Assembly: GCA_951406725.2 (NCBI GenBank)
Contig: OX597816.1
Coordinates: 170,128,001-170,192,000, forward strand
Direction of reading: 5' to 3'
DNA: 64,000 bases
DNA from: Octopus vulgaris
Taxonomy: Eukaryota
Numbering within the stretch: position 1 is the stretch's first letter; the number at the start of each line of letters is the position of its first letter. A model generated the notes under the pieces. That model was not told where the DNA came from, did not search any database, and saw only the letters and a list, made by a program, of their open reading frames with translations. A program made the translations under genes and the position numbers. This document shows positions 8,363 through 59,002 of the stretch, one piece after another.

Positions 8363-8572
8363 TAAAGCTAATCCAAACATAAAAGCAAAAAGAGAAAACA
8401 CAACAACGCGAAGACGTGGAACAAGTATAGTGTTATTGGACGCTCAGGAAAGGAAAGAAAGAGGAGGATTTAACGTTTTGAGCGAAGCTCTTCGTCAGAA
8501 ACATAGAAAAAGGAAAGATCCAAGGAAGGTAAGACGGAAGAAAAAAAACGCCAACAATACACACGCGGTCAC
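8363..8572 (-). mobile_element. ~210-bp hammerhead-bearing cassette (family H), copy 1
   Basis: Reverse-complement homolog of 25879-26089; minus strand 8470-8500 reads UU-CUGACGA-A-GAGC-UUC-GCUC-AAAAC-GUU-AAA; flanked by microsatellites. Confidence 0.75.
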
Positions 8573-8779
8573 GCGCACTAACATGCATACACACACACAC
8601 ACACATACACATGTATAGCCATCTATTCATGTTTGTGTATATATGTACGGATGTACTTGGGTATATATGTATATATGTGTATATACACATATGAAAGCTC
8701 GCACGCACACAGACGTATATATAAATTAAGCATTAGTGTTAACTCAAAGCCCTTCGGAGATAGGTGTGGTGAGTGGCAT

Positions 8780-9695
8780 ATAATAATAATAATAATAATA
8801 ATAATAATAATAATAATAATAATAATAATAATAATAATAATAATAATAATAATAATAATTGTGTACAGTGCTCAGGTGCACTACAACTCATCTAAAGTGT
8901 ATATATAATCAGGTGTAGTTTCGGCGGATTTCGGAAAGCATGAGGGCCTTAAAGGATGCAGTGTCATGGCAGTCAACAACTGACGCAGGCAGTTTATTCC
9001 ATGCTTCAGCAACTCTGAGCGTGAAAAAATGTTTCCGAAAGTCATGGGAGCTGTGTTGTTTTCTGACTTTGTAGGCATGTCCACGTGTGTTAGACACATG
9101 GAGATCAAAAAGGTGTTCAGTGTTGTTGTTGGTGAGGTGGTTGATAACCTTGTGGGTGTTTACCAAGTCCGTCGCCAGACGCCGGAGCTTCAGTGAATCC
9201 ATGCCCAGGGAAACAAGGCGCTCAGAATATGGTAGGTGTCTGATGGAGGGTATGCGTTTGGTTGCACGTCTCTGGACAGATTCCAGGAGGTCAATGTTCT
9301 GAGCAAGATAGGGATTCCAAACTGATGATGCGAATTCCAAGTGTGGTCGTACCATAGCTGTAGACAGTTTTAAATAGATGGCTGGAGAGCGGCTAACAAA
9401 AGTCTTGCTGAGTGATGCCAAGACACCCTCGGCCTTCTTGACAATTTTAGAGATATGCTTTGTCCAACGCAAATCACTGCTGACAGTGATGCCTAGGTCA
9501 CGCTCGCGAGAGGATTTCTTGATATCAGTGTTGTGGAGGGAGTATGTGGACGCAGGGTTTTTTCTCCCAAAATGCATGGTGGTACATTTGTCCACAGCCA
9601 GTTTCAGTTGCCAGTCTGTGATCCATTGCTGCATTGTGTCTAGGTCTGATTGCAGGAAAGAGTTGTAGACATCAGGATCAGTCCTCTTGATCCTA
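8780..9695 (-). mobile_element. 5'-truncated CR1/L2-group LINE (RT C-terminus) with (ATT)n tail
   Basis: ORF 8909-9721: LQSDLD..QW...WQLKLAVDKC, ERDLGI, VRPHLEFASSVWNP, LESVQRRATK, FFTLRVAEAWNKLP; (AAT)n at 8780-8859 is the 3' tail. Frame uninterrupted, so relatively young. Confidence 0.92.
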
Positions 9696-10624
9696 TAAAT
9701 AGGATTTCGATTTTCACACATCTAAAAGTTAGATTTGGATATGTGCGAAAATATAACCGGCAAGAATAATAATCTATTTGCGTCTAACAGAGTACTACCT
9801 TTGGTTCACCATTTCCATAACCGGAATTGGCTTATCGGAGCTCTATCTCTCTGCTCGAGAAAGGCAATAAACATTCAAGTCATCAAATTCCACTACCTGT
9901 AGACACCTCATAGAGAACAATTCGGTTAAGTAACCCTGGTAAAGTGAGCTTATCTGACTTGAATCGGTGTGCACACTCCTGTCGCAGTCATCATACTCCG
10001 ATTTCTAAATTTGTTACCACTCAGGGCATCCATAATCCGAGGCCATAAGAAGACTTTCTAGCATGTGTGAATTAGCTCACTACACGAATTTGGAAAGCAG
10101 CCTTCTTGTTTCGAGTTGAAGATGGATTATTCATTGTCAACTAACAATAGTCCTTACCTGTTTTTCTCTTTTACTTATAAGCTCCGAACTTTTAGTGGCG
10201 ACAGTATCATGAACGTTACTATGCATAATTTATTTCATGCAATCGATGATTGAGGTCATTCACAGCATTACTACACCGTTTGCGATGTCTCTTCTAGCAA
10301 CTAATTCCTCTTCTCTTCGAGATTTTTCTTAATAGTTATATCTTTGCCGAATCTAATTCGTGCTTCCCTAATTTTTCTTTTTAACAAAACCCTTCATTTG
10401 ATATTGTTGTGTTTGGTCGAGCTGTTAGAAAGAAAACTTATCCTTGAGCCTCTCTTTTGGTGGTCTGAGAAATACCTTGTTGTTGTTGCTATTGTGGTGA
10501 TGATGGTGATGTTGGTGGTGGTGGTGGTGGTTGTAGCAGTGCTGCAGAGTGACACTCCACTGTTCAGTTTCTCCACTGTAGGGATAATTATGTTAAGGTT
10601 GTTGCCTTTAGTCAAAGAAATCGA

Positions 10625-55647: not shown

Positions 55648-56992
55648 CTTTATAATTCGAAACTCGATTTCCAGTCTTGGTACGGAACACACAGAACCTC
55701 GGGCTCTGCAAAAGCCAAACTAGCAATCTCTGATGAGTAGAGAGAGAGAGAGGGGGGAAGAGAGAGGAGAGAGAAAGAAAGACAGAGAAAGATATATATA
55801 TATATATATATATAGAGAGAGAGAGAGAGACGGAAAGAGAGAAATATTCAAGTTGATGGATATCAGTGTTAATGCTGTCTTTGTTGCCTTACTGATGCTC
55901 GAAGAGAAAGGAATATGAAAATAGCTGAGTTAGAGGGGTTGCCTTTCTTTCGAATGGGAAACTTTGAAAAGTGCTTCCAAATGTTGGGACACGTCTCCGT
56001 AGACAGTGAGAGGTTTATATATTTGGTGGTTGTAATTGGATGGATATTCTTAGATCCGGTGACCTTGTTTGTTTGAAGCAAGTGGATGTATTCCCACCAG
56101 GAGAGAGAACTGGATAAAGCAGGAAGGGGAGAGCTATATTAGGTTGGCAAACGGTGGGCAGAGTGTCGAACCGGTTGTAAATCGGGCAGATTAGGTAGAT
56201 GCTTTCTCAATATGCATACTACTTCCAGACCTATCGTTGTCAAGAAATCGAGGAGTTATGGATTTCACAAAGAAGACGAAGTTATTTTTTGGCAGGAAAC
56301 ATGAAAGATAGATTGCATTACGAAACTCTGTGTGATGTATACTTTGATATTGCAAGCAGCAATGAGATAATAAAAATTTATGCTGCTTATAACTTTGTGT
56401 TTATTATTTTCTCCATATTGCCTTCTATTTTTAATTTGTATAGAGTAAGTAAATAACTCTGTTTTCTACTGTTTTTGTCTCAAAAGTAACTTTCAAAAGT
56501 GACAGAAACTATATCGTTATACTGCTCAGAGCAAGATAAATCAAATCTGGAATTCTTAAAGATACTTTTTTTTAGCTAATGTAATGGATGACTGAGAAAA
56601 AGTGATTTCGTACTGAGAAGTCATATTTAATAGATCATTGTGCATTGTAGGAAAAAGTTAAAATTGCGTGACTTGACACGTTGAAATGATTTCTTATTAC
56701 TGGATGATACTATGTTAATTACTGGAAACTGACAATTTTTCATTTGTGTCTATAACGTCAGAAGAGTTACGATATGTAAGGCTACAGAGGCTGAATATTG
56801 TATAATCTAGCAAGCAGCTGTAGCACTGTTTATATCCTTCTTCCTGAATTTGTTATTGTAACTCTTTATCAGTGCCACTTAATGATAAAGTCGATGCTAA
56901 TTTTCCTTCTTAACAGTACTTAATTCACGAAATCAGTTGTTATTACCCAGTTGTTATTACCCTTCATATATCATACATCATATTTGCATATA

Positions 56993-58261
56993 CGAGGGAC
57001 GTTCAATAAGTAATGCCCCTGACCCACTTGCAGTTATTTGATCTAGCTGAAATTTTGCATGTGCAATTATTTATATCTCTATATATTAAGTGGCAAATTA
57101 CATCTCTGAACTAATTGTGGTTTCTGATTTACAGGTGTTTGAACTGAGTCAAGTGTGAAATGGAGCCTGTTGAGTGTCGAGCAGTGATCCGGTTTTTGTA
57201 TTTGAAAGGACGCACACCACTGGAGACTTTTGATGAAATGAAAGTAACTTATAGTGATGATGCCCCTTGTAAAACTCTGGCATCGTGAATTCAAACATGG
57301 TCGGAACTCTGTGGAAACAGCTCCCAGATCTGGTCGCCCCACTTCTGCCATTGATGAGGCATCTGTCCGTCAAGTTGAGGCTGCCATTTTGGAAGACCGA
57401 CGCATAACTATTCGCCAAATAGCCCATGAGGTCAAGATTAGTACCGGGTCTGTGGAAACTATCATTCATGACAATTTGTATATGCAAAAGGTGTCTGCCA
57501 GATGGATTCCCAGGTTGCTCACACCTTTCCAGAAGCAAGAACGCGCCGAGTACTCGAGGATGAATTTGGAGATGTGCCAAGAAGATGAGTCAAAAGTTTT
57601 CAAAAGACTGATTACACAGGATGAAACCTGGGTCCATCACTATGATCCAGAGACCAAAGCCCTGTCAATGCAGTGGAAGCACCGTGACTCACCTCCTCCA
57701 AAGAAGGCAAGGGTGTAGCCCTCTGCTGGCAAGGTCATGCTCACAGTCTTCTGGGACCAGGACGGAGTAGTGATGACTGATTTCCTGGCAAAGGGTACCA
57801 CAATTACAGGAGCCTATTATGCTTCACTTTTGAGGAAATTAAGAGAAGCTATCAAAATCAAGAGGCGGGGCAAGATCAGCAAAGGCATCCGCCTCCTGCA
57901 GGACAATGCTCCGGTCCACAACTCGCGTGTCGCCAGATCAGAAGCACAGACGTTCGGCTATGGACTTCTCGCCCATCCCCCCTACTCTCCTGACCTTTTC
58001 ACCTCTTCCCAGCCATGAAGTTGTTTTTGAAAGGAAAGCGTTTCCCAGATGATGCAGCCTTGATTTCTGAAGTCACGTTGAGGTTGGAGGAGCAAGCTGG
58101 GGTCTTCTACAGAAACGGTCTCCAGAGCTGCATCAAACGATGGGAGAAATGCGTAACTCTGGGTGGTTCTTATGTAGAAAAAGACTAATAACTGTGCCAG
58201 GTTTCGTTGCTCTACTCCTATAGGAAGTGGGCCAGGGGCATTACTTATTGAACGCCCCTCG
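56993..58261 (+). mobile_element. Near full-length mariner element (1269 bp)
   Basis: TIRs CGAGGGACGTTCAATAAGTAATGCCCCTGACCCACTT / AAGTGGGCCAGGGGCATTACTTATTGAACGCCCCTCG; TA TSD at 56991-56992 and 58262-58263. Confidence 0.97.
57160..58188 (+). pseudogene. Mariner transposase pseudogene
   Basis: MEPVECRAVIRFL..; ARWIPRLL; TQDETWVHHYDPE; LQDNAPVH; HPPYSPDL; frameshift near 57268, stop at 57716, deletion after YSPDL. Confidence 0.93.
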
Positions 58262-58851
58262 TATGTAAATAAGAATATATGCTGAATGCAGCTTTATTTA
58301 AACAGGATTAGCCCACAAGAAAGCGATTGACTACCTACCGATTCTAGAAGTGTTGTTTGGATCGAATTGCAATCACAAGACGCCTAGATTTGCCTTTTTC
58401 TTTATACATCGAAATCCATTAGCTGTAACTTTAAAGATCTCAGTGCGTTTCTCAAGGTTTATCCAGCACCGCATGTAGTGTTTCAAATATTTGCAATATT
58501 AGTGTATGAGCGTATATGTATTTATATATATGTGCGTGTATGTATGTATATATACGTATGTGTATGTACATATATATATGTATGTATATATGTATGTGTA
58601 TATATTATTATTACGAATTTGGGATATGTACCAACAGATAACCAACTCCTATTTCAGGATAACCTCATGGTAAATAAAGTAAAGCAAAATAATTAATATA
58701 ACATAAAATAAAATTAGATAAATAAATATATCTTACCTGTTATTATTCTGTATGTATATCTATCTATCTATCTATCTATCTATCTATCTATCTATCTATC
58801 TATCTATCTATCTATCTATATATATATATATATATATATATATATATATAT

Positions 58852-59002
58852 GTTTCTTTGCTGTGTATCTTTCTGTCGAAGAGCGTAGGTTCGAAACGTA
58901 AAAGACTTGTTTTATTTATATTCCTGAGCGCCATACTAATACATTGTTTGTTTGTACTCCACCTGCCTTCGTCTTTTGTTTATTTTCGTAAACCTTCCCG
59001 TT
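58852..59002 (+). mobile_element. Hammerhead-bearing cassette related to family H, within (TA)n
   Basis: UCUUU-CUGUCGA-A-GAGC-GUAG-GUUC-GAAAC-GUA-AAAGA at 58868-58905; downstream CCTGAGCG..TAATA shared with the other copies. Confidence 0.7.

What the first reader, a model, noticed from the sequence alone, without database searches (positions are those of the whole stretch)
8363..59002. Family H: three copies, each with a different core mutation, reconstruct an intact ribozyme
Copies at 8363-8572(-), 25879-26089(+) and the more diverged 58852-59002(+) share a GAGC/G(C/U)UC stem II with different loops (UUC, UCC, GUAG). Each has one distinct core lesion (GAAA to AAAA; CUGA to CCGA; CUGA to CUGU), so the consensus CUGACGA-A-GAGC..GCUC-GAAACGUH is intact. 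Stem I differs between copies 2 and 3 but stays paired (GUUU/AAAC vs UCUUU/AAAGA). Copies 1 and 2 have nearly the same ~210-bp extent and all end at a TA run, which suggests a unit-length element that was ribozyme-active when inserted and then decayed.
Basis: partly seen in the sequence, partly recalled or inferred. Interest (0 to 1): 0.75.

Follow-up and report, generated by a model that had tools for sequence, protein, structure and literature searches.

The report
Penelope element ends with altered hammerheads
The three repeats are short end-pieces of two very abundant Penelope-type jumping genes, and two of their three "broken" ribozyme letters are not decay but are shared by thousands of copies and by young full-length copies, which likely means these elements spread with a weakened self-cutting RNA that is predicted to stay uncut while it is copied.

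Summary
The three hammerhead-like motifs are real and at the stated places. They are short terminal (pseudo-LTR) pieces of two Penelope-like element families of Neptune/Nematis type, about 120,000 pieces genome-wide by extrapolation. The decay reading fails for two of three copies. Copy 3 is a separate young family whose core is CUGU: only 122 of 13,213 exact-context copies have CUGA. Copy 2's CCGA is in 5,764 of 8,426 exact-context copies. Young long-ORF elements carry these variant cores in both pseudo-LTRs. Only copy 1's GAAA-to-AAAA change looks like CpG decay. Across 11 lineage consensuses, 22 of 22 other core and stem positions are invariant against 30 of 113 flanking positions, so the fold is likely under selection. 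Short copies stop at a sharp 5' wall about 100-110 nt before the cut site; 0 of 63 incidental copies start at the cut site. Best reading: a conserved but probably slow hammerhead, with uncleaved RNA as the insertion template. Cleavage and transcription were not tested. Minimal PLE hammerheads are known; earlier AI notes of this scan report similar variant cores in other families of this genome.

The parts
8363..8572 (-). Copy 1: short pseudo-LTR end of PLE family A, CUGA subfamily; begins 9 nt inside the 5' wall
8468..8502 (-). Copy 1 minimal type I hammerhead: helix I 8502-8499/8471-8468, C3 at 8498, G12-to-A at 8479 (CpG-type change), ACGU palindrome, U17 at 8472
8271..8362 (.). Microsatellite at the 3' side of copy 1: short TATA, (CA)n, (TA)n (approximate limits)
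25879..26089 (+). Copy 2: short pseudo-LTR end of PLE family A, CCGA subfamily; begins at the 5' wall (+2)
25954..25988 (+). Copy 2 hammerhead: C3 at 25958, lineage-wide C4 at 25959, U17 at 25984
25784..25878 (.). (TA)n tract 5' of copy 2, likely the insertion target (approximate limits)
26090..26112 (.). (TA)n tract 3' of copy 2 (approximate limits)
58852..59002 (+). Copy 3: 5'-truncated pseudo-LTR end of PLE family B (begins 49 nt inside the family's 5' wall), 97-98% identical to nearest relatives
58868..58905 (+). Copy 3 hammerhead: C3 at 58873, family-wide U6 at 58876, GUAG loop II, A17 at 58900; a G-U wobble in helix II where its relatives have G-C
58752..58851 (.). (ATCT)n/(TA)n tract 5' of copy 3 (approximate limits)
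59003..59037 (.). (TA)n tract 3' of copy 3 (approximate limits)

Best explanation
The three repeats are short terminal pieces of two Penelope-like retroelement families whose young long-ORF copies already carry non-canonical hammerhead cores (A6U, U4C, often U17), so the ribozyme is likely a conserved but slow cutter and the copies were likely made from uncleaved RNA. Shown: each family's repeat is the pseudo-LTR end of an RT + zinc-finger linker + GIY-YIG element found in partial tandems; the 3' junction falls at a short TTATA(T) inside the element's own tandem sequence and abuts (TA)n; short copies pile up at a 5' wall 71-84 nt upstream of C3; almost none start at the cut site; C3, G5, G8, A9, G12-A15.1, U16.1, helix II and the ACGU palindrome are invariant among lineage consensuses while U4, A6, N7 and N17 change. 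Inferred: the endonuclease nicks (TA)n; reverse transcription primes internally at the AUAUA stretch after the hammerhead; it runs off at the RNA 5' end, a start site inside the pseudo-LTR, giving the ~210-230-bp unit; priming at the downstream pseudo-LTR gives the rarer long copies. Inferred: selection keeps the fold for slow, dimer- or protein-gated cleavage at another step, and tolerates changes at positions where natural variants keep some activity.
For: ORF linkage: L191 reads (TA)n, RT end, CxxxxCxxC, GIY-YIG, 3'UTR, hammerhead, (TA)n. 24 of 30 GIY-YIG loci have a parsable hammerhead 0.4-1.1 kb downstream, and 24 of 24 have U6. Pfam RVT_1 E=1e-7 and GIY-YIG E=0.006, the latter below its cut-off. 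Young elements: 12 of 12 long-ORF family-B loci have CUGUUGA, 11 of 12 also U17, and 6 of 12 have two pseudo-LTRs 94.6-99.7% alike; 11 of 12 long-ORF family-A loci have CCGACGA. Counts; incidental copies U6 in 27 of 27 family B, C4 in 13 of 28 family A. Selection: 22 of 22 vs 30 of 113 invariant columns; within A 22/22 vs 66/116, within B 22/22 vs 63/103. 3' junction; (TA)4 at the 3' end in 30 of 44 random copies vs 6.6% of random windows. 5' wall: 4,038 matches reach it (191 in the reversed control), 374 extend 10 nt further; 23 of 30 family-B hits end at -3 to +27, 3 run far upstream, none between. Cut-site starts: 0 of 63; 25 pattern matches genome-wide, 8 of the 12 inspected real. Literature: hammerhead-dead mutants still insert in vitro and uncleaved RNA is the main substrate (PMC11167929); natural U4C and A6C keep low activity (PMC3088659); Penelope has an internal promoter (PMC2377424).
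Against: No cleavage and no transcript end was measured. The conservation test left out U4, A6, N7 and N17 after they were seen to vary (with U4 and A6 counted it is 22 of 24). Copies were anchored on a fuzzy core match; 67 of 306 hits were dropped for no anchor, short flank or duplication. The 11 consensuses are related, so the Fisher P values overstate independence. The block may be conserved for a reason other than catalysis. In the youngest family-A lineage helix I has a U-U mismatch next to the core, and in several copies the predicted lowest-energy fold pairs the core strands with each other instead of forming the hammerhead. A6U itself is not among the tested variants that I read; only A6C is. 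The cut-site pattern count has no matched control position and needs a (TA)4 flank. A cleaved 3' fragment could be a poor template for reasons unrelated to cleavage rate. The wall as a start site is inferred from position and a TCA/TCT motif only. The youngest family-A elements are a sister lineage of copies 1 and 2, not their own subfamily.
Confidence: 0.6

Rival explanations
1. The motif no longer cuts. The hammerhead-shaped block is kept as a non-catalytic signal, such as a binding site for the element's protein, an RNA dimerisation site or part of an internal promoter, and the variant cores mark the loss of catalysis.
For: The youngest family-B elements combine A6U with U17, and the youngest family-A elements combine U4C with a mismatch in helix I. 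No pile-up of copies at the cut site. The block lies 70-110 nt downstream of the inferred start site, where an internal promoter could lie (PMC2377424). In vitro insertion does not need cleavage (PMC11167929).
Against: The invariant set is exactly the catalytic set plus helix II and the palindrome, and it includes CpG sites that decay fast in inserted copies (loop-3 CG changed in 28 of 202 copies) yet stay in all 11 consensuses. The positions that vary are N7 and N17, which are free, and U4 and A6, where natural variants keep some activity (PMC3088659). Helix I swaps G-C for C-G between families. The youngest A lineage has the favoured GUC triplet.
Confidence: 0.25
2. The ~210-bp units are a self-propagating non-autonomous element (SINE- or retrozyme-like) transcribed from their own internal promoter and mobilised in trans, not by-products of full-length transcripts.
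For: Short units greatly outnumber long copies: 41 of 44 random copies end within 100 nt of C3, and the random 1 Mb held no ORF piece of either family. An internal promoter would travel with the unit (PMC2377424). Non-LTR retrozymes derive from PLE pseudo-LTRs (bioRxiv 10.64898/2026.07.22.740005).
Against: The main short subfamilies have long ORF-linked counterparts with the same hammerhead end (L289 CCGA, L277/L284 CUGA, L191/L199/L266 CUGU). No head-to-tail arrays of the unit were seen in the 30 copy-2 loci or the random 1 Mb; neighbours were mostly different subfamilies or inverted pairs. This rival is compatible with the variant-core result.
Confidence: 0.2
3. One reading: one unit-length family that had a canonical active ribozyme when inserted, each copy then taking its own core lesion.
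For: Holds for copy 1: its subfamily has GAAA (20 of 29 nearest) and G12-to-A recurs at a CpG (7 of 202 other copies vs 1 each at A13 and A14). About a third of exact-context family-A copies have CUGA.
Against: Two families. CUGA in 122 of 13,213 family-B copies. CCGA in 5,764 of 8,426 family-A copies. Variant cores in both pseudo-LTRs of young long-ORF elements.
Confidence: 0.03

Closest known systems
Minimal type I hammerheads in pseudo-LTRs of metazoan PLEs (Cervera and de la Pena 2014, PMC4209133; read parts 1-2 of 4)
   Same: Type I topology, short helix I, an extra base after A9, G10.1-C11.1 pair, palindromic minimal helix III, mostly solitary genome-wide copies, a few in full PLEs.
   Different: The core change named in the parts read is C3U/G8A. 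Here U4C and A6U are fixed in whole amplified lineages, often with U17. Helix II is 4 bp. The figures and supplement were not seen and may show more variants.
Neptune/Nematis-type EN+ PLEs (Craig et al. 2021, PMC8557442; passages read)
   Same: C-terminal GIY-YIG, CX2-5CxxC linker, DKG motif, partial tandems forming pseudo-LTRs, (TA)n targets, hammerhead near the 3' end.
   Different: The passages treat canonical hammerheads as universal in these clades. No Neptune-versus-Nematis tree was built here.
PAc Poseidon element of Anolis (Frangieh et al. 2024, PMC11167929; read parts 1-2 of 4)
   Same: Internal start of reverse transcription, AT-rich target, uncleaved RNA as template, no reads at the cut site.
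   Different: PAc primes at a site without homology to the target and its ORF starts inside the hammerhead. Here the junction is a short TA stretch that matches the (TA)n target, and the likely start codon lies about 440-760 nt after the hammerhead.
Natural hammerhead core variants U4C (viroid) and A6C (phage Bcep176) (Perreault et al. 2011, PMC3088659; section 8 and passages read)
   Same: The same two positions are changed; low but detectable activity is reported.
   Different: Single rare examples there, thousands of copies here. A6U rather than A6C. No tertiary contacts were identified here that could offset the loss.
Metazoan non-LTR retrozymes (Cervera and de la Pena 2020, PMC7229834, passages; Li et al. 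2026 bioRxiv, part 1 of 5 and passages)
   Same: Short non-coding units with a type I hammerhead, related to PLE pseudo-LTRs.
   Different: Retrozymes form tandem arrays and circles. These units are solitary, have a fixed 3' end and a 5' wall, and are ends of autonomous elements.

Membership tests
Penelope-like element, C-terminal EN+ | Single ORF with RT and C-terminal GIY-YIG endonuclease linked to the repeat | tested here: met
   950-aa (A) and 1069-aa (B) ORFs with YIDD and Y(I/V)GQT, 68% identical over 729 aa; Pfam RVT_1 passes, GIY-YIG is below cut-off
Penelope-like element, C-terminal EN+ | Partial tandems forming pseudo-LTRs | tested here: met
   6 of 12 long-ORF B loci and most of 12 A loci show direct repeats of 0.5-3.8 kb, 95-100% alike; three tandem units on C10
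Neptune/Nematis-type PLE | CX2-5CxxC linker between RT and endonuclease; DKG motif | tested here: met
   CSRSRCNTC and CSRPRCRTC, DKG in both; feature list from PMC8557442
Neptune clade (versus Nematis) | RT phylogeny with reference clades | not tested
   No reference sequences were fetched; 'Neptune' is a likely label only
Minimal type I PLE hammerhead | Helix I, helix II with G10.1-C11.1, extra base after A9, palindromic helix III/loop 3 | tested here: met
   self-duplex of the palindrome predicted at -3.1 to -5.5 kcal/mol
Canonical hammerhead core | CUGANGA ... GAAA ... UH all present | tested here: not met
   None of the three window copies; 0 of 27 incidental B copies; 11 of 28 incidental A copies have CUGANGA plus GAAACGU, 1 of 28 also has A or C at 17
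Active hammerhead ribozyme | Site-specific self-cleavage after N17 | not testable with these tools
   Only indirect: no pile-up of copy starts at the site
Non-LTR retrozyme | Head-to-tail arrays of the unit with intact hammerheads | tested here: not met
   No arrays in the 30 copy-2 loci or the random 1 Mb; one possible 200-bp dimer was not examined; the genome was not searched for arrays
Non-LTR retrozyme | Abundant circular RNA | not testable with these tools
   No run on record as RNA, contigs only
Naiad PLE | N-terminal GIY-YIG, DKA motif | tested here: not met
   Endonuclease is C-terminal and the motif is DKG

The most novel reading that the evidence does not exclude
Two long-lived PLE lineages have kept the hammerhead fold under selection while tuning its chemistry down or off (A6U plus U17; U4C plus a helix I mismatch), so in these elements the hammerhead has become a protein- or dimer-gated switch or a non-cutting RNP signal. 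Their ~100,000 short copies are run-off cDNAs that map the element's transcription start and internal priming site in vivo.
Probability: 0.3. Interest if true: 0.7.

Novelty: new variant of a known kind. Interest (0 to 1): 0.42.

Why it matters
What the hammerhead of Penelope-like elements does is an open question; it may process the RNA or merely ride along (PMC8557442, PMC11167929). This genome offers a natural experiment: successive source lineages with canonical, U4C and A6U cores, young copies with long open frames, and copy ends that show which RNA was the template. A small panel of natural variants can test whether cleavage rate matters. It also warns that strict CUGANGA descriptors miss whole families (about 99% of family B), and that a consensus from a few copies can invent an intact ribozyme.

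Tried and rejected
Rfam scan of the window: no hammerhead family hit at E up to 1; the 122 hits were mostly miRNA and snoRNA models on microsatellites, all below gathering score. Sequencing runs: no RNA holder listed, so no evidence on expression. Laying four runs' contigs on L191 gave no start, end or circle information and is not used as evidence. The tree of 45 copies separates A from B and shows B as a ladder with U6 throughout, but does not resolve whether copy 1's CUGA subfamily is ancestral to or reverted from CCGA; long branches were flagged. The window copies were not in that tree by name. Cofolding two copies gave mostly non-hammerhead duplexes and is not used as support. Literature: eight searches found no paper on these families or on A6U hammerheads. 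Lunse, Weinberg and Breaker (small PLE-associated hammerhead variants that cleave as dimers) is not held; I saw only its title and a review's mention (PMC6765202). It, and the figures and supplements of PMC4209133 and PMC8557442 that I did not see, may already list these core variants. PMC7151607 has no mention of A6U (term search only). PMC13282606 (passages) lists recently active Penelope families in Octopus vulgaris and has no occurrence of 'ribozyme'. Rejected: tandem retrozyme, Naiad, chance motif, independent decay of copies 2 and 3.
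Full report
Setting. The window lies at G000:C3:170128001-170192000 in a 2.80-Gb genome of 227 contigs. Size, the number of large contigs and the microsatellite load suggest an octopus; that label is recalled and was not tested.

Observation. All three motifs are present. A descriptor scan finds these three and nothing else in the window; 30 Markov controls give 2 hits in total. Each has a 4-5 bp helix I, a 4-bp helix II after one extra base, and GAAACGU with the ACGU palindrome. 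This is the minimal type I layout described for PLE pseudo-LTRs (PMC4209133, parts 1-2 read). Rfam does not detect them.

Two families, not one. Copies 1 and 2 are 83.6% alike. Copy 3 is 63-72% alike to them but 97-98% alike to its nearest genomic relatives. I call these A and B. One hundred evenly spaced 10-kb stretches held 44 hits, 22 of each, which extrapolates to about 120,000 pieces. A tree of 45 copies separates A and B with strong support.

What they are ends of. Three family-B hits ran upstream; two reached a GIY-YIG frame and the third its tail. L191 shows (TA)n, RT end, CxxxxCxxC linker, GIY-YIG, a low-complexity 3'UTR, the hammerhead end and (TA)n. Of 30 loci found with that endonuclease, 24 had a parsable hammerhead 0.4-1.1 kb downstream and 6 had none in range. 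Family A extends likewise: 3 of 30 upstream-extended loci showed a GIY-YIG within 1.5 kb, and L277 holds a broken RT-endonuclease frame. The long frames (950 and 1069 aa) have DKG, YIDD, CX4CxxC and Y(I/V)GQT and are 68% identical. Pfam gives RVT_1 above cut-off and GIY-YIG below it. These are the features of Neptune/Nematis-type PLEs (PMC8557442, passages).

The 'lesions'. Family B: 13,213 exact-context matches, 122 with CUGA; 96 of the first 100 listed read CUGU. All 27 incidental copies with a core have U6, as do 24 of 24 endonuclease-linked ones. All 12 long-ORF loci have CUGUUGA, 11 also U17; 6 have it in two pseudo-LTRs. Family A: 5,764 of 8,426 exact-context matches have CCGA; among incidental copies it is 13 of 28. 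Eleven of 12 young long-ORF loci have CCGACGA with GUC and a U-U mismatch in helix I; one (L313) has CUGA in both repeats. This youngest lineage is a sister of copies 1 and 2, whose own subfamilies are linked to endonuclease frames at L289, L277 and L284. Contigs from four runs with four different organism labels show C at family-A position 4 in 46-53% of summed depth and list no alternative to U6 at the 8% threshold; 6 rows were hidden and depth is not copy number, so this is only a hint that both states are shared between related species. Copy 1 is different: its subfamily has GAAA (20 of 29 nearest), and G12-to-A is a CpG change seen in 7 of 202 other copies against 1 each at A13 and A14. 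CCGA also creates a CpG, so decay can turn it back into CUGA; 14 of 61 copies with the CCGA-lineage marker read CUGA.

Is the fold still selected? From 306 hits, 239 were kept after dropping those with no core anchor, short flanks or duplicates. Eleven lineage consensuses were built from clusters of 4 or more. Nine core positions and 13 structural positions were invariant in all, against 30 of 113 flank columns; within A 22/22 vs 66/116, within B 22/22 vs 63/103. U4, A6, N7 and N17 vary and were left out after the fact; counting U4 and A6 gives 22 of 24. The lineages are related and the anchoring favours the core, so the P values (2e-5 and 9e-5 within families) overstate the case. Still, CpG sites that decay in 28 of 202 inserted copies persist in every consensus, and helix I swaps G-C for C-G between families. 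Natural U4C and A6C variants keep low activity (PMC3088659). Against activity: folding predicts core-strand mispairing as the lowest-energy state in several copies, and A6U was not among the tested variants I read.

Why about 210 bp, and why TA? In tandem elements the upstream pseudo-LTR continues through a short TTATA or TTATATAT into the 5'UTR, and the terminal one ends there and meets (TA)n (10 of 10 pairs shown). (TA)4 lies at the 3' end of 30 of 44 random copies against 6.6% of random windows. At the 5' side, 22 of 44 end 65-89 nt upstream of C3 and 3 of 44 go beyond 100. Genome-wide, 4,038 matches reach the family-A wall (191 in the reversed control) and 374 extend 10 nt further; ordinary decay of 10 extra bases would remove about half by my estimate, not nine tenths. 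In family B, where the query began 49 nt inside the wall, 23 of 30 hits end at -3 to +27, 4 are shorter and 3 run far upstream. Both walls sit at a TCA or TCT motif. I infer a transcription start inside the pseudo-LTR, as in Penelope (PMC2377424, abstract and passages), and run-off of cDNA primed at the internal TA stretch. This step is inferred; no RNA end was seen.

Was the template cleaved? A cleaved RNA would give copies starting at position 1.1. None of 63 incidental copies starts within 9 nt before or 23 nt after it. A pattern for a TA flank joined to the post-cut sequence has 25 matches, and 8 of 12 inspected are real family-B halves. There is no matched control position. The result agrees with the Anolis element, where hammerhead-dead RNA inserts normally in vitro and cleavage needs the protein (PMC11167929, parts 1-2 read).

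Verdict. These are PLE pseudo-LTR ends with minimal hammerheads, a known kind. The new points are lineage-wide A6U and U4C cores in young long-ORF elements, apparent selection on the rest of the fold, and end distributions that point to uncleaved leader RNA. Eight literature searches found no description of these families, but the most relevant paper on PLE hammerhead variants could not be read. Earlier AI notes on other DNA of this genome describe a PLE mini-element that spread after core changes, a CCGAUGA retrozyme and a swapped-core family; I did not check them, and they are not independent support.

Noticed in passing
window 5780-6427 (+): End of a third PLE family: decayed GIY-YIG remnant at 5780-6082 (43-44% identical to families A and B), a hammerhead-like motif at 6353-6379 with canonical CUGACGA and a GGAU/AUCC helix II but C at 16.1, then (TA)n.
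   Followed up: partly
L313 (G000:C1:93329000-93338999): A young family-A element has CUGA in both pseudo-LTRs while the 11 other loci have CCGA; likely a reversion at the CpG in a source copy, which would restore the canonical core with GUC.
   Followed up: partly
L310-L312 (G000:C10:97803500-97828000) and L315-L316 (C16): Head-to-tail arrays of full-length family-A elements, period about 6.2 kb, units over 99% alike.
   Followed up: partly
L152:8774-9169, L186:243-584, L038:1287-1712, L094:1321-1656: Ends of different subfamilies or families sit directly beside one another, head-to-tail or inverted, probably through insertion into each other's TA tails.
   Followed up: no
L273:4125-4332: A short family-A end lies in reverse orientation within the 5' part of the coding region of a long family-B element.
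   Followed up: no
family B: N7 steps through G, A, C and U along a ladder-like succession of subfamilies while U6 stays fixed; useful as a subfamily marker.
   Followed up: partly
L034, L055, L071, L076 downstream flanks: A different 250-450 bp repeat follows the TA tail in these four loci; not identified.
   Followed up: no
L310-L324, 3'UTR: The youngest family-A lineage has a long low-complexity 3'UTR of about 2.6-2.9 kb with stop-free stretches of 500-700 codons; probably compositional.
   Followed up: no
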